Shown: positions 1 to 50,403 of the stretch, in pieces
How positions within the stretch are numbered: position 1 is the stretch's first letter
How the letters are laid out: each line of letters opens with the position of its first letter
Assembly (NCBI GenBank): GCA_001821765.1
Contig: MHOA01000008.1
Coordinates: 167-64,166, forward strand
DNA from: Candidatus Ryanbacteria bacterium RIFCSPLOWO2_12_FULL_44_26
GTDB taxonomy: Bacteria; Patescibacteriota; Minisyncoccia; Ryanbacterales; HO2-45-13
Length of the DNA stretch: 64,000 bases
Direction: 5' to 3'
Position numbers and translations under genes: made by a program
Notes under the pieces: model-generated
Databases searched by the model: none
The model's input: the letters and a program-made list of their open reading frames with translations, nothing else
Told to the model about the DNA's origin: nothing

Positions 1-2
1 AT

Positions 3-3000
3 GTGGGGTCCGCGACTCGCAAACAACTCAACGATCTGATTGCGGATCGTGACAGTCTCTCGCCATCTCCGCAACCGCCGTCACCCACTCCTACTCCCAC
101 TCCACAGCCCACGCCCCCGCTTTCCACTGCTACTCGCATCATACACACATGGACCTTTAGCGATGGCAAGGCCCAGATCTCACATATCTTCAACCGCACC
201 GACCAGGAATATCTGAACTACATTGCAAGTGTTGAGGCGCGGTGTCGCGCGATTCCAATCACTCAATTCCGCTGGAGCGCTCGCGTGGCAGACAGCAATT
301 CCTTAAACTGGCAAAACTACGGCATCCCGGATTGCACGGGCACGCCGCTGTTGCCCACACCACAGCCAACGCCGACCAGCGTCTGCGGCAATGCAATCTG
401 CGAAACGGGAGAAACCCAAAACAGCTGCCCGAGTGATTGTGGCCAAGTCTCAACCTCCACATGGATACTCCACACCTGGACTTTCAGCGATGGAGCAATC
501 GTCCAATCAAAGATTTTCAACCGCACCGACCAGGAATATCTCAACTATGTTGCAAGTATTGAGGCGCAGTGCCGCGCCATCCCACGGTCGCGGTTCGTCT
601 GGAAACCCAATGCCGCTAACAGTGATCCCTCAAACTGGCAAAACTACGGTATCCCAAATTGTTCTTCCTTTCTATCAGCGCCTATCTGCGGCAATGCAAT
701 CTGCGAAACGGGAGAGACCAGCGCCGTCTGCGCGCAGGATTGTCCGCTGACCTGTACGACGACTCCCTCCAAATGCACCACTGCATTCTCCTGCGCTGCT
801 GCCGGTTATGCCTGGTGCAGTAACGCCTGCTATGCCTCCAACGCCTCCTGTCCCGTCCTCTCATGCGGTGATAACATCATCACTGCTCCGGAAGAATGTG
901 AGATCGGCGTGCAGCGTATTGCCCCCACCTGTATCCAAAAGGGGTTTGATAGCGGAGGGCCGATTACCTGCAGCACGAACTGCCGATGGAATACTGACTC
1001 TTGTGTGAACTATGTCTGCGGCAATAACGTCCGGGAAGGAACAGAAGCGTGCGATGGGAATACTGAAATACTCTCCTGCACGACGCTTGATGGGTACAAA
1101 GGCACGAAGACCCGAGCCTGTAATCCGCCTGCCGGCACCAATGCCTGCCAGTGGGGCAGTTTCGGCAACTGCATTCCAAACGAATTCTGCGGCGATGGAA
1201 CAATCCAGACTTCGGCAAGAGAAACGTGCGAGGGCTCCAACCTTGGAGGAAACACTTGTCGTAGTCTTGGGTACGATAAAGGCACGGTGTCGTGTAATAC
1301 AAACTGCACGCTCAATACTGCACAATGCAGCAACATTGATTCTGATGAACCCGTGTTACCCGGTACAGGTTCAGTGGATATAGGAATCGTTTTCCCAGGA
1401 GCCAGCTGGGCAGCGCGTAATCCTGAAGACGTGGGACTTAAACAATCGGGAGTCGACCAATTTGTTTCTGCTGTTAGGAATTTCAGTAGCAATGGCATGG
1501 TTATCAAAGATGGTTATCAGGTCGCTTCTTGGGGAAGCCTGAGCGATAAAAACGACTGGGCATCCGCTGCAAAGCCGGTACATTCCACACTGCTTTTCTT
1601 TGCGGTCAAAGAAGGAAAACTTTCAGGCATTGGCGATCGCATTGCATCTTACGTTAACAAGGTTTTGGGTAAGAGTTTAAGATCGGCTGACCTCCCTATG
1701 ACCTTTCGTCATCTCTCCAACATGACGAGCGGATACACCCTTCCTGAAGGGCCGGGGGAAGCTTGGGCATATAATGACTATGCTATCAAACTTTATGTCC
1801 GCATGCTCTATGATGGCGTTTATGGCACTTCAAATGCCAACCAAGTCGCCATCAATACAAATCGTCTGGGTGCCTTGGGCTTTCAAGATGGTTCGATTTT
1901 TTCCAGCAGGGATGGCTATGGATTGAGCACCTCTGTGAGAGATTTTGCCCGAATTGGATGGCTTTGGGCAAACAAAGGTTATTGGAACGGACGACAACTG
2001 TTCCCCAAAGAATATTTTGACCTGTACGTGAATGTCCAGGTGCCATCCAATCTTCCTAGGACAACAGGAAGCTCTGTGGATGACTACCTAGGTGTTGGCA
2101 CAATAGGAGGAGGCAATGATCTATCAAGTCTGGGACCTGGTGTATATGGAGCTAACTTCTGGTTCAATGCAAATAAAAAATTATTTCCAGACTTACCTGC
2201 TGATACTTATCAAGCCGTTGGTCACTGGGGCACGAAAGTGCTTACTGTATTTCCATCTCAAAGAATGGTTGTTGTTCATTGGCAAAGCGGAACTCGCGAC
2301 CAAAGTGGCTATAATCGGGACTTCAACAGCGTGGCACGATCTCTTATCAATGCCGTAGTTGCTCAACCTGAGCCCACCCCCACCCCAACAAGTAAAGGTA
2401 AAATAATCGTTGATCCCACTAATCCTGAGTGGCTTATCTATGAAAATGGAAAACCTTTCTTTATGTGTGGCCCGGGAGATCCGGAAGACTTTTTATATCG
2501 CGGAACACTCCTGAACGATGGAACCCGAAGTGGTGACCAACTCAATCTTATTAACAAACTTAAAGGAACCGGGGCTAACAGCATTTACCTCCAGGCCATT
2601 CGTTCTCATGGTGGAGATGGTAATAACACACACAATCCGTTTATTAATCATGATCCTACAAAAGGATTAAATGCCAAGGTTTTAGATCAGTGGGAGAGTT
2701 GGTTTAGCGAGATGGACAGAAATTCTATCGTGATCTACTTTTTCTTTTATGATGATAGCGCAAATATTTGGAATACGGGTGATATCGTTGGATCTGCTGA
2801 AAAAGCCTTTATTGAAGGTATTGTTAATCGATTTGAACACCACAAAAATTTGATTTGGGTTGTTGCTGAAGAATATGGAGAAAAGTTCTCGGCTACTCGC
2901 GTATCCAATATTGCACAAGTGATTCGTTCAGCAGACAACAATCAACATGTCATTGGGGTCCATAAAAATGAAAGTATTTCATTTTCAGAATTTGCAAACG

Positions 3001-3557
3001 ATCCAAATATCGGACAGTTTGCTATGCAAATCAATAGTCCTTCAACCCCTACAGAAATGCATGTTGAGGTATTGAAGGCTTGGAATAATGCTTCTGGAAG
3101 ATACAACTTAAACATGTCGGAAGCGGCTAACCAGCCGATTGATTCATCGGCACGAAAAATGAATTGGGCTGCTGCGATGGCAGGTGCTTACGTCACGGCC
3201 CTTGGATGGACAATAGATAACACCCCGAAAGAAACCCTGGTTGACTGTGGCCGACTTGTAAACTTTATGGAGAGCACAACCTTAAACAAAATGTCCCCCA
3301 GAGATGATTTGGCAAGCGCTGGAACCCAATACCTACTGGCAAATCCAGGTCAAAGTTATATTGCCTATTCCGCATCTCTATCTGGAGATATCGGGATCAA
3401 AAACATGAGTGCCGGTACATATTCCTTCAAATGGCTTGACATTCTGACAGGTTATTCTTTAACCCAAACAAGAGTACAAGTCTTGTCAGGAACTCAAAAT
3501 TTTAAATTACCTCCGGGAATCGGCAAAGAGGTCGCTGTTTTTATTCTGAAAGAATGA
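3..3557 (+). CDS. Large modular secreted protein, 5'-truncated by the window edge. It has two copies of a ~105-aa domain, Cys-rich (CGNAICETGET / CGDGT..ETCEG type) repeats, a beta-lactamase-fold serine hydrolase domain and a C-terminal glycoside-hydrolase-like (DUF4038/GH5-like) domain.
   Basis: The ORF is 1184 aa with no start codon in the window. The motif block IIHTWTFSDG...NWQNYGIP(D/N)C occurs twice, at nt ~131-340 and ~463-665. Pro/Thr-rich linkers are present. SAAK (SxxK), FAVKEGKLSGIGD and MTFRHLSNMTSGY match the beta-lactamase/PBP family pattern. The C-terminal region resembles the GKPFF...GDP...G.N.IY family. Family assignments are from memory, not a search. Confidence 0.6.
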   Translation: MGSATRKQLNDLIADRDSLSPSPQPPSPTPTPTPQPTPPLSTATRIIHTWTFSDGKAQISHIFNRTDQEYLNYIASVEARCRAIPITQFRWSARVADSNSLNWQNYGIPDCTGTPLLPTPQPTPTSVCGNAICETGETQNSCPSDCGQVSTSTWILHTWTFSDGAIVQSKIFNRTDQEYLNYVASIEAQCRAIPRSRFVWKPNAANSDPSNWQNYGIPNCSSFLSAPICGNAICETGETSAVCAQDCPLTCTTTPSKCTTAFSCAAAGYAWCSNACYASNASCPVLSCGDNIITAPEECEIGVQRIAPTCIQKGFDSGGPITCSTNCRWNTDSCVNYVCGNNVREGTEACDGNTEILSCTTLDGYKGTKTRACNPPAGTNACQWGSFGNCIPNEFCGDGTIQTSARETCEGSNLGGNTCRSLGYDKGTVSCNTNCTLNTAQCSNIDSDEPVLPGTGSVDIGIVFPGASWAARNPEDVGLKQSGVDQFVSAVRNFSSNGMVIKDGYQVASWGSLSDKNDWASAAKPVHSTLLFFAVKEGKLSGIGDRIASYVNKVLGKSLRSADLPMTFRHLSNMTSGYTLPEGPGEAWAYNDYAIKLYVRMLYDGVYGTSNANQVAINTNRLGALGFQDGSIFSSRDGYGLSTSVRDFARIGWLWANKGYWNGRQLFPKEYFDLYVNVQVPSNLPRTTGSSVDDYLGVGTIGGGNDLSSLGPGVYGANFWFNANKKLFPDLPADTYQAVGHWGTKVLTVFPSQRMVVVHWQSGTRDQSGYNRDFNSVARSLINAVVAQPEPTPTPTSKGKIIVDPTNPEWLIYENGKPFFMCGPGDPEDFLYRGTLLNDGTRSGDQLNLINKLKGTGANSIYLQAIRSHGGDGNNTHNPFINHDPTKGLNAKVLDQWESWFSEMDRNSIVIYFFFYDDSANIWNTGDIVGSAEKAFIEGIVNRFEHHKNLIWVVAEEYGEKFSATRVSNIAQVIRSADNNQHVIGVHKNESISFSEFANDPNIGQFAMQINSPSTPTEMHVEVLKAWNNASGRYNLNMSEAANQPIDSSARKMNWAAAMAGAYVTALGWTIDNTPKETLVDCGRLVNFMESTTLNKMSPRDDLASAGTQYLLANPGQSYIAYSASLSGDIGIKNMSAGTYSFKWLDILTGYSLTQTRVQVLSGTQNFKLPPGIGKEVAVFILKE

Positions 3558-3931
3558 ACTTTATAGGAAGCGCCAGAGCTCGGAAAAGAAGGATTGAGAT
3601 ACATGATATGATGAAACAAGTATGATGAAATAATTAAAGAATTTTGCACATTGATTCGCAATTTTTTCCCATGCATCCCATTTCTTGAGATGCTACCCAA
3701 AACAGGAATAATTTCCTGACAAAACCCAGGTCATATACAACAACGGTGAGCGGGAGAAATTTTCCTTAAAAAAACTTCTTTGACCTCCCATAGTATAATT
3801 AACATTATGCTTTTTATCTGTATGTTTGTCGAGAAAAGCGTTTTACCTTAAAAGATTCATTTCTTTTCAGCATGATTCCCGACACCATGCTAAAATAAAA
3901 ATACAGCCTCATATCAGTTCTTTATTTTATA

Positions 3932-4936
3932 ATGACAAAAAAGAACTTATACGTCGTTACAATCCTGATGGCACTTACAATCATGCCGATCTTCTATGCT
4001 CACGGGGAAACCCAAACGCTCACGAATGTCGGCTTTATACAGGGCAACATTTGGTATTCCGAAGAACCTTTTTTTGACGGTGATCATATAAGAATTTATA
4101 CCGTCCTTCATAATAATAGCGGACAGGATATTACCGGAACAATCGTATTCTATGACAATGAGACTCCAATAAACAGCAATAATTTCTCCATCGCGAACGA
4201 GAGAGTTCAAGACCAATGGACTGATTGGCAAGCAGTGTATGGCTCTCATAAAATCTCCGCATCCATTACGAATGCGAAGATGATATTGCCCGGCGGCGAG
4301 GAAGTTACTATTGTTTTACAAAACAGTCAGACCGGAGTCAGCGACCGTTTTGTTGACATTGATACCGATGAAGACGTTATTGGAAATAGCGCGGATGCCG
4401 ATGATGATAACGACGGCATGCCGGATACGAAAGAAGTCAGCATTGGAACAAATCCTCTCAAACAAGACACCGACGAAGATGGGATAAACGATGCCAAAGA
4501 CACAGATCCCCTTATTCCAGAAAAACCAGCCGCTTCCCAAACACCCCAAACAACGGAAACCTCTCCCGAGCAGGCAAACAGCATCCTTCCTTTTGCAACA
4601 CATGCAATAGCATTAATAGCCAACAAGATAGAAACAGCAAGGAAGGCGTTACTTGCGCAGATTGAAAGAAGGATCGAACACTTAAAAGCGGAGATGAAGG
4701 AGCAGAACATAAAAAAAGAATCCGTTCAGCCGACAACGAAAAAGAACGGAGCGGAGGCACGACTAGGGACAAAAGCGATGCTGAAAGATTCCGGTATTTT
4801 CCAATATCTCAATCTCTATATACATTATGCGCTGCTTTTCATTTTAAAATATAAAATACTTTTTTACTTCGTTTTAGCGCTTCTGTTTTACTATCTTACT
4901 CGGTTGTTTTACAGAAAAGTGTTCCGTTCATATTAA
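3932..4936 (+). CDS. Secreted Asp-rich Ca-binding (thrombospondin type-3-like repeat) protein with a C-terminal membrane anchor.
   Basis: N-terminal signal peptide MTKKNLYVVTILMALTIMPIFYAHG. Repeats DIDTDEDVIG, DADDDNDGMPD, DTDEDGINDAKDTD are present. The C-terminal stretch is hydrophobic. Confidence 0.55.
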   Translation: MTKKNLYVVTILMALTIMPIFYAHGETQTLTNVGFIQGNIWYSEEPFFDGDHIRIYTVLHNNSGQDITGTIVFYDNETPINSNNFSIANERVQDQWTDWQAVYGSHKISASITNAKMILPGGEEVTIVLQNSQTGVSDRFVDIDTDEDVIGNSADADDDNDGMPDTKEVSIGTNPLKQDTDEDGINDAKDTDPLIPEKPAASQTPQTTETSPEQANSILPFATHAIALIANKIETARKALLAQIERRIEHLKAEMKEQNIKKESVQPTTKKNGAEARLGTKAMLKDSGIFQYLNLYIHYALLFILKYKILFYFVLALLFYYLTRLFYRKVFRSY

Positions 4937-5000
4937 CGGCGGAAATTTATATGACAATCATAATATGTATGATTGAAAACTACTCTTATACATAAGATAT

Positions 5001-5471
5001 ATGCGACATGTAAAAGCAGGGAATAAAGCGCCGGATTTTTCCGGAAAAGACCAAAACGGCAACATCCATAGGATTTCCGACCATAAAGGAACATGGGTGC
5101 TGCTGTATTTTTATCCCAAAGACGACACACCCGGATGCACAAAAGAGGCATGCTCCATTCGGGATACACATAAAACCTTTAAAGAAAAAAATGTCGTGGT
5201 ACTTAGAGTAAGTAAAGACTCCGTTGAGAGCCATAAAAAGTTTGCAGACAAATACACGCTCCCCTTCACCTTGATTGCTGATCCGGAGAAAATTATTGTG
5301 AAACGCTACGGCGTTTGGAAAAAGAAAAAATTTCTTGGAAGAGCATATATGGGAACGGCGCGGGAGTCTTTTTTAATAAATCCGAAAGGCGTCATTGCAA
5401 AAGTATATGAAAAAGTCAAACCGGCCGAGCACGCCGACGAAGTACTTGTTGATGTAAATACACTTGCGTAA
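5001..5471 (+). CDS. bcp: Thiol peroxidase, Bcp-type peroxiredoxin.
   Basis: APDF...LYFYPKDDTPGCTKEAC is the peroxiredoxin/AhpC-TSA active-site context. Size is 156 aa. Confidence 0.9.
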   Translation: MRHVKAGNKAPDFSGKDQNGNIHRISDHKGTWVLLYFYPKDDTPGCTKEACSIRDTHKTFKEKNVVVLRVSKDSVESHKKFADKYTLPFTLIADPEKIIVKRYGVWKKKKFLGRAYMGTARESFLINPKGVIAKVYEKVKPAEHADEVLVDVNTLA

Positions 5472-5591
5472 GCAAAAAAAATCTTTCTACTATGCCGATC
5501 TGTACGTTGTCGTGTTTATTGTACAACTCCTACTGAAAAATCATTTACTATTCTTAAAATCAAAAAGCTTTAAGCAAAAACACTGGCAAAC

Positions 5592-5617
5592 AAACGCCCC
5601 GCTTCAGCGGGGCGTTT
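5592..5617. terminator. Bidirectional intrinsic terminator hairpin between bcp (+) and a small membrane-protein gene (-).
   Basis: AAACGCCCCGC-TTCA-GCGGGGCGTTT forms an 11-bp GC-rich stem flanked by A/T runs. Confidence 0.7.
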
Positions 5618-5629
5618 GTGTTATGCTGT

Positions 5630-5872
5630 TTATGCCTCTTCCTGCGGAGGTGATGCCTGCGCGGAGGACTCTTGAGACTTTCCTGATATACACTCCCTGC
5701 AACGATGCGTATGTGTAACTATTTCGTAAATAGCTGCGGCACCGATCAAAATTCCCAAACCCCGCCAGAATGTACTGGGCAGAAACGCAAAATAAATATT
5801 GAGGGCGTTGAGAAGAGCCAACAGTCCTCCCAATATCAGCAAACCAAATGCTATCTTGTGAAGATTTTTCAT
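5630..5872 (-). CDS. Small membrane protein (two TM helices, Cys-rich tail); hypothetical.
   Basis: 80-aa ORF with hydrophobic segments IAFGLLILGGLLALL and GLGILIGAAAIYEIV, then HRCRECISGK. It overlaps an antisense 70-aa ORF that I judged less plausible. Confidence 0.35.
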   Translation of the reverse strand: MKNLHKIAFGLLILGGLLALLNALNIYFAFLPSTFWRGLGILIGAAAIYEIVTHTHRCRECISGKSQESSAQASPPQEEA

Positions 5873-6181
5873 ATGATAAAGTTTTTTGCGCCGGCGACCT
5901 TTAAAGTAACTGGTTGATATTATTTTACCAAATATTGATATTATTGTAACCGTAAATCATATAGTTCCCATATAATACTGGCGCGCAATCACTCAAACGG
6001 AACTTCAATGCTCTGCTGGCTGTCTTTTATGAAACTGCGAACGAGTATATAGGATATTTATACAACACAACCTTTTTCACCGACAAGTAGGCTTGCATTG
6101 AGACGGAAATGAAGATTTAGAGACTATATAAAAATTGACACTGGCATACTCTCCGGTAAGATACGTCTATAAGAAAACCTC

Positions 6182-6340
6182 ATGGAAAAAGAACCTGAAA
6201 AACCAAAAAGACGGCCCTGCATGCAATTAGGCCACTGTGATTTTATAAGAGATGGTGATGAATTCAGATGCACGAAATGCAGGATAAGAGTTAAAATTCA
6301 CCAAGAAAATAATCCGCCCCTACAAAAACCTGAGCAATAA
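6182..6340 (+). CDS. Tiny Cys-pair (zinc-ribbon-like) protein, 52 aa, hypothetical.
   Basis: ATG at 6182. The protein MEKEPEKPKRRPCMQLGHCDFIRDGDEFRCTKCRIRVKIHQENNPPLQKPEQ has C-x5-C...C-x2-C. It is below the 60-aa cut-off of the ORF track. A TTGACA-N17-TAAGAT promoter-like sequence lies at 6135-6163. Confidence 0.25.
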   Translation: MEKEPEKPKRRPCMQLGHCDFIRDGDEFRCTKCRIRVKIHQENNPPLQKPEQ

Positions 6341-6476
6341 CTACTGGAGCTTTATACCACAAACAAGGTTCTTTACTGCGAAGTGCCGATCCGCTCTTAC
6401 GGATAATTATTAAAAAATGAAAAGTAATTTCATAAATACAGCTTACTATTTTTGAACTTGCATATAAAAAACAGTT

Positions 6477-6504
6477 TTGACAAAAAGGATGGTTTGGGTA
6501 TAAT
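6477..6504 (+). promoter_or_regulatory. Near-consensus sigma-70-type promoter (TTGACA-N16-TATAAT) driving the small zinc-ribbon gene.
   Basis: TTGACA at 6477-6482 and TATAAT at 6499-6504 with a 16-nt spacer. The ~95-nt leader contains a hairpin (AGGCAA...GGGTTTATATATACCC...TTGCCT). Confidence 0.6.
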
Positions 6505-6605
6505 AGGTAGGTTAGATGAGACTAGGCAAAGGCGGGTTTATATATACCCATTGCCTAAACAAATCGCAAAGGTCTCTTTTTTATTAGAATAATTACACAG
6601 GCAAA

Positions 6606-6788
6606 GTGGCATACAACGAAAATCAAGGCGGTGGAGAACGGAAGATGTATCAGGGAGATTGGAAATGTTCCAAATGCGGAGCTGATATAAAGGAACTTCC
6701 ATTTAATCCTGATCCAAGCCGGGCGGACACCCTGCAGTGTCGGGATTGTTATCGGCAGAACCGACCGCCCCGCCGCAACAACTTCTAG
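6606..6788 (+). CDS. Small CxxC-x20-CxxC zinc-ribbon protein. The likely true start is ATG 6645, giving MYQGDWKCSKCG..., 47 aa.
   Basis: GGAGAA lies 7 nt upstream of ATG 6645. The motif is WKCSKCGADIKELPFNPDPSRADTLQCRDCY. An intrinsic terminator follows. Confidence 0.5.
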   Translation: MAYNENQGGGERKMYQGDWKCSKCGADIKELPFNPDPSRADTLQCRDCYRQNRPPRRNNF

Positions 6789-6805
6789 TGATAAAGCTAG
6801 TCAAA

Positions 6806-6839
6806 AACCCTCGCGTTGGACGCGAGGGTTTTTGATTTT
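6806..6839 (+). terminator. Intrinsic terminator.
   Basis: CCCTCGCG-TTGGA-CGCGAGGG followed by TTTTTGATTTT. Confidence 0.8.
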
Positions 6840-7004
6840 GTGTCAAATCTTCATATTTTTACCTGCTAAGCGTAAAAACACTTGATAGACAGGGGTTTTT
6901 ATACTTTATTATTTCGTCTTACTGCTGCATTACAATATCCACTTTTATGTCTTTTTAGAAAAAATTCCAAGAAGGAGTACAATATATGTTAGAGTCATTT
7001 TAAA

Positions 7005-7436
7005 ATGGGAGTGCCCACGATGAGGTACTACTCGCTTTTGCAAGATATGTGGAACCGAGTAAGTAATTATGCGTGTAAGCAATGCGGCAGTCTCGCCATT
7101 GTCTCCCATGAAGACGGTTTCCCAGATGTATGGGGCTGCAGGATATGCAACTACACTACCTATGCGCGAGATGTATTCTTCGGCGAAGTGATTGACGTCA
7201 TAGTGCTCGGCGTGATACTGCGATGTGTCATCGTCGCACAAAGCAAGCAGTTTGTACGTTTAATGATTAGCCGTGAAGAAATGCTTGAAATACAGGCGGA
7301 GTCAGGCGATCTTGCTGAAAACGCGACCGTTGAAGTGTATCACTTTATTCCGCGGAAGTATGCCCAAAGCAAGAGATTCGTAACAGCCGGTGAGTTCCAC
7401 ATGCCAAAAGACAAGCTCGTTGAAATTCTTTCCTGA
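7005..7436 (+). CDS. Hypothetical protein with an N-terminal CxxC...CxxC zinc ribbon. The start is possibly ATG 7020.
   Basis: CKQCGS...GCRICNY. GGGAG lies 8 nt before ATG 7020. A strong terminator sits immediately downstream. Confidence 0.45.
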   Translation: MGVPTMRYYSLLQDMWNRVSNYACKQCGSLAIVSHEDGFPDVWGCRICNYTTYARDVFFGEVIDVIVLGVILRCVIVAQSKQFVRLMISREEMLEIQAESGDLAENATVEVYHFIPRKYAQSKRFVTAGEFHMPKDKLVEILS

Positions 7437-7437
7437 A

Positions 7438-7467
7438 GACTCTCCGGTCGTTGGAGAGTCTTTTTTT
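7438..7467 (+). terminator. Intrinsic terminator.
   Basis: GACTCTCC-GGTCGTT-GGAGAGTC followed by TTTTTTT. Confidence 0.8.
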
Positions 7468-7548
7468 GTTGGAAAAAACGCTTCTTCCTGCACAGTAATA
7501 CTTGAACAGATGCGGGAATGAGCTGGAGCTACACCCTTCTAACGGGAT

Positions 7549-8367
7549 TTACTTATCCATGCGTCTGTTGTACGACCTCCCCAAAAGGGTCGCGATAAAA
7601 ATAAAAATGCTAAATAAGACAATGGTCGCGCCGGAGGCCGTATTGAAATAAAAAGAGCCCATCAGCCCCATGAATACGCTTAATACCCCTATGAGCAATG
7701 CGTATACCATCATCTGGCGGAATGTTCGGCTGATGTTTTTGGCTGCCGCGGCGGGGATGACCAGAAGCGCCGGGACAAGAATAATGCCGACCACCTTGAT
7801 GCTCATAGCGGTTACAACGGCGAGGAGTCCCAGAAACAGATATTCATAGAAACGAACTCTTACTCCAGAAACTTGAGCGATTTCCCGATTAAAGGTGATT
7901 TTGAAAAGAGGCTTCCAAGTAAGAAAAAATATAATGCCAACGAGAACGGAAATGAAAAGGGCAGTTATTACATCCTGAAAGGAAATGGCAATGATATCGC
8001 CAAAGAGGAATTGAAAAAGGTCAACACGGTATCCTTCAAGAAGCCCGATAATAAAGATGCCAAGAGCTGCCGCTCCAGAGAAAAAAATTCCGATAATGGT
8101 ATCAAGCGACTGCGTTGGCGCATGGTTTTGGAGATATCCCATGCCGAGTGCCAAGAAAAGCGATACAAACACCGCCGCCACTATGGGATTCATCGCAAAT
8201 AAAAAGCCGAGAGCGATTCCCGCAAAAGCAAAGTGAGCCACCGCGTCGCCGAAAAACGCGGAACGCCTCAGCACCACAAAAACGCCGAGAAGCGAGAGCG
8301 TCGCCCCCATGAGAACGCCGGCAACGAGCGCCCTTTGCATAAATTGAAGCTGAAAAATCTCAAACAT
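7549..8367 (-). CDS. Metal (Zn/Mn) ABC transporter permease, ABC-3 / ZnuB-like.
   Basis: 272 aa and polytopic. GDAVAHFAFAGIALG and the overall pattern are typical of ZnuB/MntB-family permeases. Its 8-nt overlap with the upstream ATPase gene indicates an operon. Confidence 0.85.
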   Translation of the reverse strand: MFEIFQLQFMQRALVAGVLMGATLSLLGVFVVLRRSAFFGDAVAHFAFAGIALGFLFAMNPIVAAVFVSLFLALGMGYLQNHAPTQSLDTIIGIFFSGAAALGIFIIGLLEGYRVDLFQFLFGDIIAISFQDVITALFISVLVGIIFFLTWKPLFKITFNREIAQVSGVRVRFYEYLFLGLLAVVTAMSIKVVGIILVPALLVIPAAAAKNISRTFRQMMVYALLIGVLSVFMGLMGSFYFNTASGATIVLFSIFIFIATLLGRSYNRRMDK

Positions 8368-9079
8368 TTCTTTTTTCTTTATGCGCGTATACGGCTTGAT
8401 TGCCGCCGTAAAGTTTTTCTATGACTTCTTTAGTAAGAGCTTTTTCCGGAATGCCTTTACAGAGAAGCTTGTGATTTACGCAAAGTACGGAGTTCGCGTA
8501 CCGATACACCACATCTACATCGTGAGAAACGAGAACTGTGGTTATCGCTTTTTCTTTTCTTAAAGTTTCCATCAGTTTATACACCTCAGCCGCGCCTTCA
8601 ATATCTATACTCGCAGCTGGTTCATCAAGAAACAAAATCTCCGGCTCATTGAGCATAGCCAATCCCAAAAGCACGCGCTGGAATTCTCCGCCTGAAAGCG
8701 AACCAAGGCTTTGGGAAAGAAGCGCCTTCACCCCTATCAATGCGAGCGTATCTTTCGGCAAAGAATTTTTAGCTGAAAGATGCGCCTTTAGAAGTTCTTC
8801 AACAATTACCGGCATGGTGCGGTCAAACTCAAGCCGCTGTGGGACATACCCTATCTTTGAGGCGATTTCTGCCAGTTCCCATGGCGCCCTTCCTAATATC
8901 TGAATCTCGCCCTGATATGGCACAAGACCAAGCATCGCTTTCAAAAGCGTTGTCTTGCCAGAACCGTTAGGGCCTATAATTGCGGCGATGTCGCCTTTTT
9001 CAATATTAAAAGATAAACCATCAAGGATATGGTGGCTATTGAGGGTGACATGAAGATTACGAACAGAGATTGTTGCCAT
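8360..9079 (-). CDS. Metal ABC transporter ATP-binding protein (ZnuC-like).
   Basis: Walker A GPNGSGKTT, signature LSGGEFQRV, Walker B ILFLDEP. Confidence 0.9.
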   Translation of the reverse strand: MATISVRNLHVTLNSHHILDGLSFNIEKGDIAAIIGPNGSGKTTLLKAMLGLVPYQGEIQILGRAPWELAEIASKIGYVPQRLEFDRTMPVIVEELLKAHLSAKNSLPKDTLALIGVKALLSQSLGSLSGGEFQRVLLGLAMLNEPEILFLDEPAASIDIEGAAEVYKLMETLRKEKAITTVLVSHDVDVVYRYANSVLCVNHKLLCKGIPEKALTKEVIEKLYGGNQAVYAHKEKRNV

Positions 9080-9081
9080 AG

Positions 9082-10062
9082 TTACTGTAGTGCTTCTTTT
9101 AGAAGCTCTAAATTCTTCTGCATAATGAAGATGTAAGAATCTTTCGCGAGATTGCCGGTTTCTACGGGATCGAGCGCATACACTTTAAGATTCAAATCGC
9201 GCGCAATCACCTCAACGACTTTTGGAGAAAACTGCGGTTCTGAAAAAATCGCGGTGATTCCAAGCTCCCGGATAAGTTTTATTACTTCGGAAAGATAGCG
9301 CGGAGACGGTTCTTTGCCGGGAAATTCTTCAATAGTTGCCGCTTCATTAAGCCCGTAGCGCTTAGCAAAATATTGGAACGCGGAATGAAACGCGATGAAA
9401 TCTTTCTTGGAAAGTTTGGCAATCGCTTCTCGAATCTCTTGATCAAGCGCGCGGAGTTCCTCAATATACCGTTCCGCGTTCTTATGATACAAATCGGCAT
9501 TTTCTGGATCGTTGGCGATGAATGCGTCGCGGATATTTCCAACCTGAATAATCGCATTATTGGGGTCAAGCCAGATGTGCGGATCAACAGGGCCGTGTTC
9601 ATCTTCCTTATGCCATTCACCTTCTTTAAGTTCTATGCCTTTAGTGGGGGTAATGGTGGTAATGCCTTTGCTGGTATCGATTACTTCAATATCAGTGTGA
9701 TCGCTTGAGGCAATCAGGTCATCGAGCACCGGTTCAAGACCGGCCCCGTTTTTAATCACCATATCGGCATTGTTGATTTTCTGAATATCGGCCGGGAGGA
9801 AGGAAGAAACTTCGGGGGTTTGGCTAAAAAGCATATCAAGCCCGATTCGACTCCCGCCCACTTGTTTTGCGAAATCGTACATTGGGAAAAATGTCGTAAG
9901 CACCCGCAATCCTGATTCCGATTGCGAAACAGGCGTTTCTTTCGGGGCGAAAATCCCGCTTCCCCAAAAGAAACTTAAAAGTCCGATAAAGATGAAACCA
10001 GCGATCACCAGAAGCTCTATAATTCTTTTTTGTTTCACCCGGTTAAAAATTTGTGTACTCAT
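9082..10062 (-). CDS. Metal-binding periplasmic/solute-binding protein, ZnuA/TroA family.
   Basis: N-terminal TM/signal peptide. DPHIWLDP and FHSAFQYFAKRYGL motifs are typical of cluster-9 SBPs. It is adjacent to the ATPase and permease. Confidence 0.8.
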   Translation of the reverse strand: MSTQIFNRVKQKRIIELLVIAGFIFIGLLSFFWGSGIFAPKETPVSQSESGLRVLTTFFPMYDFAKQVGGSRIGLDMLFSQTPEVSSFLPADIQKINNADMVIKNGAGLEPVLDDLIASSDHTDIEVIDTSKGITTITPTKGIELKEGEWHKEDEHGPVDPHIWLDPNNAIIQVGNIRDAFIANDPENADLYHKNAERYIEELRALDQEIREAIAKLSKKDFIAFHSAFQYFAKRYGLNEAATIEEFPGKEPSPRYLSEVIKLIRELGITAIFSEPQFSPKVVEVIARDLNLKVYALDPVETGNLAKDSYIFIMQKNLELLKEALQ

Positions 10063-10308
10063 ATCAGTTTATGATATTACTCCCCTTTAGATCAATATGT
10101 TCAATTTCTAACAGGGTTCCATAATAATTTATCTTTTAGTTATTAATTTGTTGTCGCATGATTTGCAAACCCCGAAAAGATCTAGCGCGCGAGCCTTTAC
10201 GGCATTGAATTGTGATGGCTTTCGAAAGTTTGATTGGGCGGAAGAATATAAGTATCCCACCGTTATCTTGGAACAAATGAACCAACTGCTCACCGAATGC
10301 CGAGAGGA

Positions 10309-10575
10309 TCAACCCGTTTCTGCCCCGTAATTGTTTACCCCGTAAGAAGCCGTAGGCTTACAATCCTTCTGAGGAGTACCCAAGGTTAAAAACAATTCTA
10401 CAATCTCGTAGTCATGAAAACCACCTAGTCCTGATTGCAGAAATCTTTCCCGAAGGCGCTTTCTATGCCCTTCGCTTTTGTGTTTTTCACTCGTTTTATC
10501 AACTTTTGGCGCTTCGACTTTGTTTACAGTGAGCATAGTCGAACCGCTCAGCATAAATAAATCCTTGATTTTCAT
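10309..10575 (-). pseudogene. RadC-like (UPF0758) N-terminal fragment lacking the JAB/MPN domain; likely a truncated remnant.
   Basis: MKIKDL...HRKRLRERFLQSGLGGFHDYEIVELFLTLGTPQKD matches the RadC N-terminal pattern (MxIKDLP..ERPRERL..G...LSD.ELLAILL.TG). The ORF stops after 88 aa. No HNHPSG-type motif is present in any downstream frame. Confidence 0.4.
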
Positions 10576-10576
10576 T

Positions 10577-10933
10577 TTATAAATCAGCGATGTAAGTTTT
10601 GATAAACTTTTCAGTTGCTCGAACTGTTTCTTCTTTTAACTTTGGGTTTGACTCCGCTACCCATTTTGCAAAATTATATAGTTCTTGGTTATCAACCCGT
10701 AGCCACTTCTTATTTCTGTATAAAAAATAAAGCATAGTGGTCATTGCGATTCGTTTGTTGCCGTTCTGAAAAGGATGATTCTTAACCATTAAATAAAAAA
10801 GAGTGGCGGTTTTATTCAGCAAACCCCTATATGCATGTTTTCTCTGAAAAGTCTGGAATGGTACAGCTAAACAGCTTTCTAGAATATTCGGAAATCTAGT
10901 TTCAAAGGACGGAATCGGTTCATTCCATTTCAT
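10577..10933 (-). CDS. doc: Doc (death-on-curing) family toxin with a Fic fold.
   Basis: The HPFQNGNKR motif fits the Doc signature HxFx(D/N)(A/G)NKR. Size is 118 aa. It lies immediately downstream of a small HTH gene. Confidence 0.75.
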   Translation of the reverse strand: MKWNEPIPSFETRFPNILESCLAVPFQTFQRKHAYRGLLNKTATLFYLMVKNHPFQNGNKRIAMTTMLYFLYRNKKWLRVDNQELYNFAKWVAESNPKLKEETVRATEKFIKTYIADL

Positions 10934-10989
10934 GGTTTCTTTCGCCAGACGAAAAGCAACATATTCTACCTCTCCTATAGTCAGCGATT

Positions 10990-11244
10990 TTATTCTTGTC
11001 CTAAGAGCCGCAATGTTTTTCCATATTCCTTAACAGCTTTCTTTACAGCAGCTTCAATGGCGTTCTTTTTTTCTTCTGTGAGAGTTTTCCCTAGGATATC
11101 GGGTAAATCGTTTTTATGAATGGCAAAATTACGGCCAATTTTTCGGGCCTTTATGGCGCCGGATTTAATTTTCTTAAAAACCGCTATTCGGCTTATACCC
11201 AATAACTTCGCCACCTCGCTTGTGGAAAGAAATTCTTTGTCCAT
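10990..11244 (-). CDS. Small excisionase-family HTH DNA-binding protein. It is a putative antitoxin to Doc, or alternatively the Xis-like factor of the decayed element.
   Basis: LSTSEVAKLLGISRIAVFKKIKSGAIKARKIGRNFAIHKNDL is a typical HTH_17/Xis-type domain. Size is 84 aa. It sits 56 nt upstream of doc on the same strand. Confidence 0.55.
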   Translation of the reverse strand: MDKEFLSTSEVAKLLGISRIAVFKKIKSGAIKARKIGRNFAIHKNDLPDILGKTLTEEKKNAIEAAVKKAVKEYGKTLRLLGQE

Positions 11245-11302
11245 ATTATTGAATAATAGTCCATGTTAACTGCTGTGTCAATGGTTAACGTATGTTAATT
11301 TA

Positions 11303-11790
11303 AACCGTCTCACTCGTGTCCGGAGAAATAATCGCGAAGGTTCGAACCCCGAAGGAAAGCTCGACCTGCTTTTAGACGCTCATTTGGACGGCACGATTTC
11401 ACGCGAGGAATACACTGCCAAGAAAGAGAAACTTATTACCGAAAAGGCCGAGCTTTCCGAAAAATCAAAGGATTTTGAACGAAACGGCAATCATTGGCTC
11501 GAACCCGGCCCGGCAATTCGTTTTAGCGGCTCAACAAGCCAAAATTATCGCTTTGCAAGAAAATCCCGTCGCGAGACGGGATTTTCTCAAAAGAATTGGC
11601 TCGAACCACGCCCGGCAATTCGTTTTAGCGGCTCAACAAGCCAAAATTATCGCTTTGCAAGAAAATCCCGTCGCGAGACGGGATTTTCTCAAAAGAATTG
11701 GCTCGAACCACGTTTTGCGCTCCCAAGCGATTTGCTTTGAACCCAAAAAGTCGTGGAAAATTCTCGCCGATTTGCCCGCCGACCCCGCCG
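11303..11790 (+). pseudogene. Decayed C-terminal remnant of a large serine recombinase (coiled-coil/tail region only), carrying a frameshift and a tandem duplication.
   Basis: Frame A reads ...LDLLLDAHLDGTISREEYTAKKEKLITEKAELSEKSKDFERNGNHWLEP, the recombinase C-terminal coiled-coil pattern. The tail continues in another frame (EPARQFVLAAQQAKIIALQENPVARRDFLKRIGSNHVLRSQ...). No catalytic N-terminal domain lies upstream; a stop occurs at 11300. Confidence 0.5.
11494..11712 (+). repeat. 102-bp tandem direct repeat (2 full copies plus a 15-nt partial third) inside the recombinase remnant.
   Basis: Copies are at 11494-11595 and 11596-11697 and differ by a 2-nt substitution. The unit is bounded by the 13-nt microhomology ATTGGCTCGAACC. 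Each copy contains the hairpin CCCGTCGCGAGACGGG. Confidence 0.9.
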
Positions 11791-11822: not shown

Positions 11823-11897
11823 TGGCTCCGCGGGCAGGACTCGAACCTGCAACCAACGCGTTAACAGCGCGCTGCTCTACCATTGAGCTACCGCGGA
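11823..11897 (-). tRNA. tRNA-Asn (anticodon GTT), CCA encoded.
   Basis: Reverse complement is TCCGCGG-TA-GCTCAATGGTAGAGC-A-GCGCG-CTGTTAA-CGCGT-TGGTT-GCAGGTTCGAGTCCTGC-CCGCGGA-G-CCA. Cloverleaf folded by eye. Confidence 0.85.
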
Positions 11898-50395: not shown

Positions 50396-50403
50396 AAGCG
50401 TAA

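What the first reader, a model, noticed from the sequence alone, without database searches (positions are those of the whole stretch)
3..3557. Very large modular secreted protein: duplicated ~105-aa domain, Cys-rich repeats, a serine hydrolase and a glycosidase-like domain.
The protein is >1184 aa in this window and runs off the 5' end. It has two ~85%-identical nucleotide copies of a domain (TWTFSDG...FNRTDQEYLNY(I/V)AS(V/I)EA(R/Q)CRAIP...NWQNYGIP), each followed by CGNAICETGET. Next come several Cys-rich repeats resembling the myxococcal CxxCGDG..E.CD type, then a beta-lactamase-fold domain (SAAK, FAVKEGKLSGIGD, MTFRHLSNMTSGY), then a TIM-barrel-like C-terminal domain. Hydrolytic and binding modules combined in one surface protein fit an episymbiotic or scavenging lifestyle. 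The differences between the internal copies are not adenine-specific, which argues against a DGR target.
Basis: partly seen in the sequence, partly recalled or inferred. Interest (0 to 1): 0.5.

Follow-up and report, generated by a model that had tools for sequence, protein, structure and literature searches.

The report
Wall-tethered two-enzyme CPR surface protein
This is a real 1391-residue secreted protein of a groundwater Candidatus Ryanbacteria (CPR) bacterium that probably hooks onto peptidoglycan, carries a stalk of small disulfide-rich modules (one an undescribed, strain-variable 72-residue domain), and ends in a widespread but uncharacterised enzyme pair, an esterase-like serine hydrolase fused to a GH140-like glycosidase; it is unusual in its combination of parts but not a new kind of system.

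Summary
The ORF (window 3-3557, +) is real. The full-length protein (P0001, 1391 aa) was recovered from other assemblies of Candidatus Ryanbacteria. Its order of parts is: signal peptide, 2x PG_binding_1, PT linker, 2x [72-aa orphan domain + CGNAICETGET 4-Cys cap], a Cys module, 3 DUF4215-like repeats, a beta-lactamase-fold serine hydrolase, a GH140/DUF4038-like TIM-barrel glycosidase, and a beta-sandwich.

Both enzyme domains pass Pfam gathering thresholds and fold with confidence (pLDDT 86.9). Their closest solved structures are GH140 apiosidases and beta-lactamase-fold esterases (Lsa45, EstG, family VIII). Catalytic residues are nearly invariant across homologs: S728/K731/Y797 and E1164/E1247. 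The third motif is H-W-G rather than KTG, so this is not a beta-lactamase.

The two enzymes form a conserved unit. More than 1000 homolog clusters exist, fused in both orders or encoded as neighbouring genes in a glycan-degradation locus. None has been characterised.

The duplicated domain is specific to giant CPR-type proteins and has no solved structural relative. The block that carries it (aa 182-449) is swapped for a ~65%-identical allele in an otherwise identical strain. That swap looks like recombination, not a DGR.

Verdict: a wall-tethered, bifunctional glycan-processing surface enzyme, and a new variant of a known kind. The substrate is unknown.

The parts
3..47 (+). C-terminal tail of the second PG_binding_1 repeat (P0001 aa 208-222). 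The signal peptide and both PG_binding_1 repeats (aa 1-222) lie upstream of the window.
   Evidence: P0001 and L001 recovered. Pfam PF01471, E = 6.7e-18, 2 stretches.
48..128 (+). Pro/Thr/Ser-rich linker (aa 223-249).
   Evidence: Read from the translation.
129..344 (+). Copy A of the 72-aa orphan 'WTFSDG...NRTDQEY...NWQNYGIPDC' domain (aa 250-321).
   Evidence: Profile match 6e-38. Alignment A1. AF2 pLDDT 94.7. No PDB or BFVD structural match.
384..440 (+). Four-Cys cap A, CGNAICETGETQNSCPSDC (aa 335-353).
   Evidence: Direct repeat family D2. The same cap follows the domain in relatives P0006, P0007, P0011, P0022 and P0026.
456..671 (+). Copy B of the 72-aa orphan domain (aa 359-430).
   Evidence: Profile match 1.7e-40. 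tblastn places it at 456-671.
687..743 (+). Four-Cys cap B, CGNAICETGETSAVCAQDC (aa 436-454).
1..727 (+). In-window part of the strain-variable cassette (P0001 aa 182-449; window -74..727). An otherwise identical strain carries a ~65%-identical allele here.
   Evidence: L001 against L008: 15.5 kb identical apart from this block and one distal patch. pS = 0.72, omega about 0.1. Further variants P0309 and P0307.
753..851 (+). Small Cys module CTTTPSKCTTAFSCAAAGYAWCSNACYASNASC (aa 458-490), shared with CPR giant proteins.
   Evidence: A similar module is seen in P0006, P0019 and P0026.
864..1328 (+). Three DUF4215-like six-Cys repeats (aa 495-541, 546-597, 603-649).
   Evidence: PF13948 sub-threshold, 3 stretches. 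TIGR02232 not significant. Strong pairwise hits to Myxococcota DUF4215 proteins.
1389..2357 (+). Beta-lactamase-fold serine hydrolase, family-VIII-esterase-like (aa 670-992). Ser728 at nt 1563-1565, Lys731 at 1572-1574, Tyr797 at 1770-1772, Asp799 at 1776-1778, His948 at 2223-2225.
   Evidence: PF00144 at 31 bits against GA 27. Invariant residues. AF2 model. Foldseek top hits are Lsa45 8DC1, 4GB7, EstG 7U1C, 6KJJ and 4IVI. Profile hit to 8DC1 at 3.8e-10.
2358..2393 (+). Pro/Thr linker between the two enzyme domains (aa 993-1004).
   Evidence: Low-pLDDT segment 340-350 of the model.
2394..3278 (+). GH140/DUF4038-like (beta/alpha)8 glycosidase domain (aa 1005-1299). Glu1163/Glu1164 at nt 2868-2873 (after strand beta4), Glu1247 at 3120-3122 (end of beta7), RSHGGDG at aa 1074-1080.
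   Evidence: PF13204 at 34.4 bits against GA 26.5. Foldseek top hits 8T9W (1.7e-17) and 3KZS/5MSY. Profile hits to 3KZS and 8T9W, where E1164 aligns to BT_1012 Asp187. Residue conservation.
3279..3557 (+). C-terminal beta-sandwich (aa 1300-1391) plus the stop codon.
   Evidence: All-beta segment 657-736 of the AF2 model, pLDDT above 90. GH140 structures align across it (8T9W alignment to position 373 of 385).

Best explanation
The gene encodes a Sec-secreted surface enzyme of Candidatus Ryanbacteria.

Proposed mechanism. Steps marked 'inferred' were not shown here.
1. The signal peptide directs export (inferred from reading the sequence).
2. Two N-terminal PG_binding_1 repeats hold the protein non-covalently on peptidoglycan (domain identity shown; binding inferred).
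3. Pro/Thr linkers and a chain of small disulfide-stabilised modules form a stalk and/or a recognition region. The modules are two copies of a CPR-specific 72-aa domain, each with a four-Cys cap, then a Cys module, then three DUF4215-like repeats. The 72-aa domains are the part that varies between strains (shown). That variation suggests they contact a variable partner (inferred).
4. The distal head is a conserved two-enzyme unit that acts on one complex glycan or glycoconjugate. The beta-lactamase-fold domain uses Ser728, Lys731 and Tyr797 to remove an ester- or amide-linked substituent through an acyl-enzyme intermediate, as family VIII esterases, EstG and FmtA do. The GH140-like clan GH-A barrel uses Glu1164 (acid/base position) and Glu1247 (nucleophile position) to cleave a glycosidic bond, most likely with retention of configuration. 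The folds, the residues and the coupling of the two domains are shown. The chemistry and the substrate are inferred.

The substrate is unknown. Candidates are acylated extracellular or cell-wall polysaccharides of a host or neighbour, or of the cell itself.
For: - Full-length protein and signal peptide.
- PG_binding_1 x2, E = 6.7e-18.
- Both enzyme domains pass Pfam gathering thresholds.
- The AF2 model has pLDDT 86.9. Ser728 sits at the N-terminus of a helix, Glu1163/1164 directly follow beta4, and Glu1247 ends beta7.
- Foldseek: GH140 apiosidases 8T9W, 3KZS and 5MSY are the top hits for the barrel. Lsa45 (a PBP with esterase activity), EstG, macrolactin acyltransferase and family VIII esterases are the top hits for the serine hydrolase.
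- Residue-level alignment puts E1164 on BT_1012 Asp187 and E1247 on the beta7 Glu: with PMC4032388.
- Catalytic residues are kept across representatives: S728 57/59, Y797 59/59, E1163 98/98, E1164 96/98, E1247 95/98.
- Coupling of the two enzymes: 19 fusions in this order and 13 in the reverse order among the top 150 representatives; more than 1089 clusters at E <= 1e-20; a fused copy plus stand-alone copies in one Planctomycetales glycan-degradation locus with GH10/5-like, GH65-like, DUF4185, BACON and dockerin genes; DUF4185 or GH99+CBM neighbours in two further loci.
- Precedents for beta-lactamase-fold esterases acting on glycans or wall polymers: EstG (bioRxiv 10.1101/2022.04.12.488081) and FmtA (PMC4752606).
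- The stalk modules are typical of giant CPR proteins.
Against: - No biochemical data exist for any member of the fused family.
- Identity to characterised GH140 and to esterases is only 14-17%, so specificity cannot be transferred.
- An H-x-G third motif also occurs in R61-type DD-peptidases (own knowledge), and NylB-like amidases are among the hits. A peptide or amide substrate is therefore not excluded.
- Genomic contexts are mixed. Three of nine loci hold degradative GHs, one holds polysaccharide biosynthesis genes, and five are uninformative (and this window).
- PG binding and the stalk or recognition role are inferred from domain identity alone.
- pTM of 0.61 leaves the relative orientation of the two active sites undefined.
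- No signal-peptide predictor was available.
Confidence: 0.6

Rival explanations
1. It is a peptidoglycan-directed lytic or remodelling enzyme. The PG_binding_1 repeats target it to murein, of the cell itself or of a host. The beta-lactamase-fold domain acts as a DD-/D-peptidase or amidase on stem peptides, and the GH domain cuts the glycan strand.
For: - PG_binding_1 x2.
- The PF00144 family includes R61-type DD-peptidases, which have an H-T-G third motif (own knowledge), and D-aminopeptidases. JGI labels relatives 'CubicO group peptidase'.
- A NylB-like amidase (4GB7) is among the closest structures.
- CPR bacteria are thought to depend on hosts.
Against: - None of the 120 best family members listed carries a PG-binding domain. 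Instead they carry dockerin, Big_9/cadherin-like, PKD, fn3 or DUF5060 domains, and some sit next to non-murein GHs.
- The barrel resembles GH140 and GH5, not any known muramidase or glucosaminidase fold.
- The YxN motif is Y-N-D.
- EstG shows that homology to PBPs does not imply activity on the cell wall (10.1101/2022.04.12.488081).
Confidence: 0.15
2. It processes the cell's own exopolysaccharide or envelope glycan. On this view it is a PgaB/PelA-like bifunctional de-acylase plus glycoside hydrolase that trims or modifies a self-made surface polymer, rather than a scavenging enzyme.
For: - One close relative (P0188, 53-55% identity) lies directly after glycosyltransferase, epimerase, Asn-synthase-like, hexapeptide acyltransferase and LPG_synthase_TM genes.
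- EstG acts on self-made periplasmic glucans, and FmtA on the cell's own teichoic acids.
- Anchoring to the cell's own wall fits a role in modifying self polymers.
Against: - Other relatives sit in degradative loci with dockerin or BACON modules or next to GH99+CBM genes.
- No polysaccharide synthesis genes lie near the gene in this window.
- It overlaps heavily with the best explanation, because the chemistry is the same and only the origin of the substrate differs.
Confidence: 0.12
3. It is an assembly chimera. A high-GC3 surface-protein fragment from another organism has been joined in silico to a Ryanbacteria enzyme gene.
For: - There is a sharp discontinuity at synonymous sites. GC3 is about 0.6 for aa 1-600 and about 0.38 for aa 630-1391, against 0.40-0.47 for housekeeping genes.
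- Several assemblies break inside the N-terminal half, at aa 151, 152, 208 and 499.
- No homolog found here shares the junction between the Cys-rich repeats and the enzyme module.
Against: - The same uninterrupted 1391-1399-aa ORF appears in GCA_036808025.1, in a 110-kb ENA scaffold and in an SRA-derived entry. The Rifle MAG fragments span the aa 600-665 junction with 100% identity.
- The upstream neighbour, also a giant protein, carries the same Cys-rich repeat and has an intermediate GC3 of 0.49.
- The frame is kept throughout.
- These assemblies come from related Rifle samples, so they are only semi-independent.
Confidence: 0.04
4. It is a beta-lactamase or penicillin-binding protein that confers antibiotic resistance or carries out transpeptidation.
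For: - It matches Pfam PF00144 'Beta-lactamase'.
- The SxxK motif is present.
- A class C beta-lactamase-related protein, PIB-1 (8RLJ), is among the weaker hits.
Against: - KTG is replaced by G-H-W-G, and YxN by Y-N-D.
- The best structural neighbours are esterases, acyltransferases and amidases.
- The domain is recurrently fused to a glycosidase.
- EstB-type enzymes with a non-KTG third motif lack beta-lactamase activity (PMC4752606 discussion).
Confidence: 0.03

Closest known systems
GH140 / DUF4038 (PF13204) apiosidases: BT_1012 (3KZS, 5MSY) and the mangrove metagenome apiosidase 8T9W
   Same: - (beta/alpha)8 barrel followed by a C-terminal beta-sandwich.
- These are the top Foldseek hits (1.7e-17) and the only significant PDB profile hits.
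- An acidic residue sits at the BT_1012 Asp187 position, and a Glu at the beta7 position.
- The Pfam gathering threshold is passed.
   Different: - Only about 15% identity.
- Glu rather than Asp at the 187 position, which is the minority state (17%) in PF13204 (PMC4032388).
- It has its own invariant motifs: CGPGDPEDFLYRG, RSHGGDG and FYDD.
- It is usually fused or paired with a serine hydrolase.
- Apiosidase activity was not shown and should not be assumed.
Beta-lactamase-fold esterases: family VIII carboxylesterases (EstB, 4IVI, EH7), Lsa45 (8DC1), EstG (7U1C), FmtA
   Same: - Same fold.
- SxxK nucleophile motif, a conserved Tyr, and a third motif that is not KTG.
- EstG and FmtA show that such enzymes can act on glycans or wall glycopolymers.
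   Different: - 14-17% identity.
- The second motif is Y-N-D.
- It is covalently fused to a glycosidase.
- No activity data exist.
Bifunctional exopolysaccharide-processing enzymes PgaB and PelA (de-acylase + glycoside hydrolase in one chain); comparison from own knowledge
   Same: The logic of one polypeptide combining removal of an acyl substituent with cleavage of the same glycan.
   Different: - Unrelated folds. PgaB and PelA use CE4-type metal-dependent deacetylases and GH153/GH166 domains.
- This is an analogy only. No homology was found or tested.
PG_binding_1-anchored secreted wall enzymes (PF01471-containing amidases, peptidases and similar)
   Same: Tandem N-terminal PG_binding_1 repeats attached to a catalytic domain.
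   Different: The catalytic cargo here is not a known murein hydrolase. A long Cys-rich stalk also lies between the anchor and the enzymes.
Giant Cys-rich surface proteins of Parcubacteria/CPR (DUF5667-containing proteins such as P0006, P0007, P0011, P0026)
   Same: They share the 72-aa orphan domain, the CGNxxCxxGE...C..DC caps and the CTT...C module.
   Different: Those proteins have a DUF5667 N-terminus and no enzyme module (0 of 42 metagenomic loci). This protein has a PG anchor and two enzymes.
DUF4215 / myxococcal cysteine-rich repeats (PF13948, TIGR02232)
   Same: CG[DN]G...E.C[DE]G repeat pattern with six Cys. There are strong pairwise hits to Myxococcota DUF4215 proteins.
   Different: Both profiles score below their thresholds. 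The repeats are longer, at 47-52 aa.

Membership tests
Pfam PF00144 Beta-lactamase superfamily (serine beta-lactamase / PBP-like fold) | Profile match above the gathering threshold, and the fold itself. | tested here: met
   31.0 bits against GA 27 on the isolated domain. AF2 model and Foldseek hits at 1e-12 to 1e-10 to beta-lactamase-fold proteins.
Pfam PF00144 Beta-lactamase superfamily | SxxK motif with the nucleophilic Ser at the N-terminus of a helix. | tested here: met
   S728-A-A-K731 is invariant in 46 fused homologs and kept in 57/59 and 56/59 representatives. It starts helix 73-89 of the model and aligns to SVTK of Lsa45.
Class C beta-lactamase / DD-peptidase (true beta-lactam-reactive enzymes) | Y-x-N second motif. 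| tested here: not met
   The sequence is Y797-N-D799. Tyr and Asp are invariant, 59/59. In the Lsa45 alignment the Asn position is occupied by Asp.
Class C beta-lactamase / DD-peptidase | K-T/S-G third motif on strand beta3. | tested here: not met
   G947-H948-W-G950. His is kept in 46/59 representatives and Lys is never seen. H-x-G does occur in R61-type DD-peptidases (own knowledge), so a peptidase role is weakened rather than excluded.
Family VIII carboxylesterases (EstB-like) | SxxK plus a conserved Tyr, a third motif that is not KTG, and esterase rather than beta-lactamase activity. | tested here: inconclusive
   The sequence features are met, and the nearest structures include 4IVI, 7PP3, EstG and Lsa45. 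Activity cannot be tested with these tools.
GH140 / PF13204 (DUF4038, apiosidase-like) | Profile match above the gathering threshold. | tested here: met
   34.4 bits against GA 26.5, covering profile positions 6-271 of 320.
GH140 / PF13204 | (beta/alpha)8 barrel plus C-terminal beta-sandwich, closest in structure to BT_1012. | tested here: met
   Foldseek top hits are 8T9W, 3KZS, 5MSY and 4QFU, with TM (target) 0.60-0.65. The PF12904 profile itself was not detected in this protein, although it is present in the Planctomycetales relative.
GH140 / PF13204 | Catalytic pair at the Asp187 and Glu284 positions of BT_1012. | tested here: met
   E1164 aligns to Asp187 (SEQRES index 167 + 20). E1247 aligns to the beta7 Glu of 8T9W. 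The Glu variant occurs in 17% of the family (PMC4032388). Conservation is 96/98 and 95/98.
GH140 / PF13204 | beta-D-apiofuranosidase activity on RG-II-type substrates. | not testable with these tools
   Identity is only about 15%. No pectin or RG-II context was found. The activity should not be assumed.
Clan GH-A retaining glycosidases | Acid/base residue after strand beta4 and a nucleophile at the end of beta7 of a TIM barrel. | tested here: met
   In the model, strand 503-508 is followed by E509/E510 (= E1163/E1164), and strand 588-594 contains E593 (= E1247).
PG_binding_1 (PF01471) | Profile match above the gathering threshold. | tested here: met
   65.1 bits against GA 23, two stretches, on P0001 aa 1-227. 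Actual murein binding was not testable.
DUF4215 (PF13948) / TIGR02232 myxococcal Cys-rich repeat | Profile match above the curated threshold. | tested here: not met
   PF13948 scores 19.8 bits against GA 27. TIGR02232 scores 9.8 bits against 20.8, E = 0.69. The region is related by pairwise similarity only.
Diversity-generating retroelement (DGR) target | Variable-region differences confined to template adenines, and a short VR/TR pair. | tested here: not met
   Copy A against copy B: 16-17 of 69 differing sites are A. Allele against allele: 247 substitutions with an unbiased spectrum, 135 of them at codon position 3, over 802 nt. A reverse transcriptase was not searched for.

The most novel reading that the evidence does not exclude
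The 72-aa 'WTFSDG' domain may be a previously undescribed CPR-specific recognition or adhesion module kept polymorphic in the population. Within one near-clonal Ryanbacteria population it shows cassette swaps, an indel and alternative recombination breakpoints. On this reading its partner is variable, either a host surface or a phage. The domain would position a new bifunctional CAZyme on that partner's glycan coat. That CAZyme would be a beta-lactamase-fold carbohydrate esterase/amidase obligately paired with a divergent GH140-like glycosidase. If so, the protein would be a candidate determinant of host attachment and feeding in an episymbiotic CPR bacterium, and the enzyme pair would define a new carbohydrate-esterase family.
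Probability: 0.15. Interest if true: 0.75.

Novelty: new variant of a known kind. Interest (0 to 1): 0.42.

Why it matters
CPR bacteria have tiny genomes and few known ways of interacting with hosts or polymers, so each large surface enzyme is a lead. This work gives three concrete handles.

1. A widespread, uncharacterised enzyme pair: a beta-lactamase-fold serine hydrolase plus a GH140-like glycosidase. It occurs in more than 1000 clusters across Planctomycetota, Omnitrophota, Poribacteria and other phyla. Fusion in both orders predicts a shared substrate. Characterising one member would annotate them all and might define a new carbohydrate-esterase class.
2. A compact, confidently modelled orphan domain that is specific to giant CPR surface proteins.
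3. Evidence that exactly this domain block is exchanged between otherwise identical strains. That is the pattern expected of a surface part under selection by hosts or phages.

None of this changes the current view of such systems. The protein remains an ordinary type of modular secreted glycan-active enzyme.

Tried and rejected
- **Beta-lactamase function.** Rejected on motifs and structural neighbours.
- **DGR diversification of the duplicated domain.** Rejected on substitution spectra, both between copies and between alleles.
- **Diversifying (positive) selection as the cause of the variable block.** Rejected. omega is about 0.1 with saturated synonymous divergence, which indicates an old allele moved in by recombination.
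- **Contig junction inside the window at 11575.** Rejected. L001 simply ends there, at a ~102-bp tandem duplication, and the window comes from a longer assembly.
- **The search for homologous proteins with the domain profile A1.** It returned nothing. This is a retrieval failure for a short profile, not evidence of absence, because one search found 42 loci.
- **Donor of the alternative cassette.** No nucleotide match was found in any fetched locus.
- **Upstream giant neighbour (L001 3-3269).** No Pfam hit and no PDB sequence hit.
- **Full-length phmmer against the PDB.** Only marginal hits.
- **NCBIfam.** Only a partial, far sub-threshold match to 3-succinylated cholic acid synthase, which is another beta-lactamase-fold acyltransferase.
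- **Antisense ORFs inside the gene (for example 861-1325 and 1010-1507, minus strand).** Not pursued. They overlap a coding region supported by homology.

Full report
**1. Observation**

Window 3-3557 (+) is one uninterrupted reading frame of 1184 codons that runs off the 5' edge. An exact full-length version, P0001 (1391 aa), lies on NCBI contig DAIRLN010000014.1 of GCA_036808025.1 (L001). L001 is 100% identical to window 1-11575. Cluster look-up names the organism as Candidatus Ryanbacteria, a Parcubacteria/CPR lineage known from Rifle aquifer MAGs. The rest of the window is ordinary chromosome: rpoB, rpoC, gyrB, pheT, uvrA, dnaG, ftsK and RNase J.

The internal duplication is real, and both copies are followed by an identical CGNAICETGET. 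Nucleotide identity over the whole unit is 68%. It reaches 79-84% only in the best segments, not about 85% overall.

**2. Architecture (P0001 numbering; window aa = P0001 - 207)**

- aa 1-25: a typical Sec signal peptide, read by eye.
- aa ~27-222: two PG_binding_1 repeats (PF01471, E = 6.7e-18).
- A Pro/Thr linker.
- Two units, each a 72-aa domain plus a four-Cys cap: aa 250-321 with 335-353, and aa 359-430 with 436-454.
- aa 458-490: a small Cys module.
- aa 495-649: three six-Cys repeats. These are related to DUF4215 and the myxococcal repeats only below profile thresholds, although pairwise hits to Myxococcota proteins are strong.
- aa 670-992: a beta-lactamase-fold domain (PF00144, 31 bits against GA 27).
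- A short PT linker.
- aa 1005-1299: an Apiosidase/DUF4038 barrel (PF13204, 34.4 bits against GA 26.5).
- aa 1300-1391: a beta-sandwich.

**3. The enzyme head**

*Size and composition of the family.* A search of 1.84 billion representatives with aa 655-1391 found 2448 relatives, 523 of them at E <= 1e-30. Among the best 150, 19 are fused hydrolase-then-glycosidase, 13 are fused in the reverse order, 86 have the glycosidase alone and 32 have the hydrolase alone. The annotated database holds more than 1089 clusters at E <= 1e-20. Most are ~750-aa proteins from Planctomycetota/Phycisphaerae, Omnitrophica, Poribacteria, Armatimonadota and Deltaproteobacteria MAGs. They are named only 'serine hydrolase', 'DUF4038 domain-containing protein' or 'CubicO group peptidase'.

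*Evidence that the two domains work together.* A Planctomycetales MAG locus (L002) holds a fused copy, a stand-alone glycosidase (46% identity) and a stand-alone hydrolase (51% identity). They sit among GH10/GH5-like, GH65-like, DUF4185, Sde182-NH-like, BACON and dockerin genes. Fusion in both orders, together with neighbouring stand-alone genes, is classic evidence that two domains share one pathway or substrate.

*Catalytic residues.* In 46 fused homologs the following are invariant: S728, K731, Y797, D799, G947, H948, E1163, E1164, E1247 and RSHGGDG. Across diverse representatives the counts are S728 57/59, Y797 59/59, E1163 98/98, E1164 96/98 and E1247 95/98, irrespective of architecture.

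*Structure.* An AlphaFold2 model of the head (pLDDT 86.9) places Ser728 at the start of a helix, Glu1163/1164 right after barrel strand 4, and Glu1247 at the end of strand 7. These are the canonical positions of clan GH-A. In the Foldseek search of the PDB, the top hits for the barrel are GH140 apiosidases (8T9W at 1.7e-17; BT_1012 3KZS/5MSY; 4QFU) and a GH5 mannanase. The top hits for the other domain are Lsa45 ('penicillin-binding protein with esterase activity'), a NylB-like hydrolase, EstG, macrolactin acyltransferase and family VIII esterases.

*Residue-level alignment.* A profile of the barrel hits only DUF4038/GH140 structures in the PDB. It aligns E1164 with Asp187 of BT_1012 and E1247 with the strand-7 Glu. 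According to PMC4032388, Asp187 and Glu284 are the putative catalytic pair, and 17% of PF13204 members have Glu at the first position.

*Motifs of the serine hydrolase.* It lacks KTG (it has H-W-G) and has Y-N-D instead of YxN. EstB-type family VIII esterases and FmtA likewise lack KTG and are esterases. FmtA removes D-Ala esters from teichoic acids (PMC4752606), and EstG acts on a cyclic periplasmic glucan (10.1101/2022.04.12.488081). I therefore read the head as an esterase/amidase-type serine hydrolase coupled to a probably retaining glycosidase, both working on one decorated glycan. The folds, residues and coupling are shown. The chemistry and substrate are inferred.

*Genomic contexts.* Contexts of relatives are mixed. 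Degradative GHs occur in three loci, polysaccharide biosynthesis genes in one, and nothing informative in the others.

**4. The duplicated domain**

Relatives occur in giant unannotated proteins. Several have a DUF5667 N-terminus and one has PG_binding_1; at least one is labelled Parcubacteria. A metagenome scan found 42 further loci, many from 0.1-um groundwater fractions. The host ORFs have a median length of about 1050 aa and carry 1-5 copies. None carries the enzyme head.

**5. Strain variation**

A second assembly, an ENA scaffold of 110 kb (L008), is identical to L001 over 15.5 kb except for two places. One is an 802-nt block, L001 3844-4645, which corresponds to window -74..727 and aa 182-449. 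The other is a patch at the distal tandem repeat.

The block covers the end of the second PG-binding repeat, the linker, both 72-aa domains and most of both caps. It is about 65% identical between the two assemblies. It has 247 substitutions with an unbiased spectrum, 135 of them at third codon positions. pS is 0.72, dN is 0.23 and omega is about 0.1. The remaining 1123 codons of the gene show no difference at all.

This pattern fits replacement by recombination with an old, functional allele. It does not fit hypermutation, a DGR or positive selection on point mutations. Read-derived entries add two more forms. One is the alternative allele lacking cap A. The other is a recombinant with a different breakpoint. 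Several assemblies also break inside the N-terminal half. These entries come from related samples and may include assembly artefacts, so I treat the polymorphism as probable rather than proven.

**6. Composition and the chimera question**

GC3 is about 0.6 for aa 1-600 and about 0.38 for aa 630-1391. Housekeeping genes have 0.40-0.47. So the gene is a compositional mosaic, with the switch at the boundary between stalk and enzyme head.

A chimeric assembly is unlikely for two reasons. The same ORF, including that junction, recurs in several deposited assemblies. The upstream neighbour is also a giant protein with the same Cys-rich repeat. Read depth could not be checked. Evolutionary module shuffling, or GC-biased gene conversion in a recombining region, would also explain the pattern. 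Both of these are inference.

**7. Comparison and verdict**

- The barrel is a distant member of PF13204/GH140 by profile, fold and catalytic positions. It should not be called an apiosidase.
- The serine hydrolase belongs to the beta-lactamase-fold superfamily. It fails the KTG and YxN tests for true beta-lactamases and PBPs, and it resembles family VIII esterases.
- The combination of PG anchor, CPR-type Cys-rich stalk and this enzyme pair was not seen in any other protein examined.

It is a new variant of a known kind, namely modular wall-anchored glycan-active enzymes. It is of moderate interest, mainly because of the uncharacterised enzyme pair and the strain-variable orphan domain.

Noticed in passing
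window -74..727 (L001 3844-4645; P0001 aa 182-449): A sharply bounded 802-nt block is about 65% identical between two assemblies that are otherwise 100% identical over 15.5 kb. Substitutions are unbiased and mostly at third codon positions, with omega about 0.1. Further variants are P0309 (deletion of cap A) and P0307 (a different breakpoint). This looks like recombinational cassette exchange in a surface protein.
   Followed up: yes
window ~1180-1360 (P0001 aa ~600-660): GC3 drops from about 0.6 in the N-terminal half to about 0.38 in the enzyme module. Housekeeping genes in the window have 0.40-0.47. The gene is a compositional mosaic.
   Followed up: partly
window 11493-11696, + strand: A ~102-bp tandem duplication (97.6% identical over 83 bp) lies inside what reads like the C-terminal remnant of a serine-recombinase-type gene (...GNHWLEP...FLKRIGSN...). 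It sits just before tRNA-Asn (11823-11897, minus strand). HTH_17 and Fic genes lie at window ~10577-11244. Together these look like a degraded integrated element, and contig L001 ends exactly here.
   Followed up: partly
L001 3-3269 (immediately upstream of the window): The upstream neighbour is another giant secreted-type protein (more than 1088 aa). It carries the same DUF4215-like repeat (CGNSVIDAGETCDGTNLGGKTCQSLGYNQGSLSCNASCVLNTTQC), and by eye its N-terminal segment looks like a TIM-barrel glycosidase (FPIGVW...WSYKDEPDN). It has no Pfam or PDB sequence hit. Both assemblies end at the same point inside it.
   Followed up: partly
window 3932-4936, + strand: The downstream gene encodes a 334-aa protein with a bacterial thrombospondin type 3 (TSP3_bac) calcium-binding repeat and a weak Ig-like match. 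It is probably another secreted or surface protein. An AhpC/TSA peroxiredoxin follows at 5001-5471.
   Followed up: partly
P0001 aa 27-115 and 132-222 (upstream of the window, in L001): The two PG_binding_1 repeats are themselves an internal duplication with a ~105-aa period and about 62% amino-acid identity. The protein therefore contains two separate tandem duplications.
   Followed up: partly
L002 12 kb cluster; L003 12741-13886: DUF4185 genes lie next to the fused hydrolase-glycosidase gene in two unrelated Planctomycetota loci. From my own knowledge, DUF4185 is a family reported as endo-D-arabinofuranases. This may hint at a furanoside-containing substrate.
   Followed up: no
window 46805-53631, minus strand: RpoB (1075 aa) and RpoC (1196 aa) are short for bacteria, which fits the CPR assignment.
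   Followed up: no
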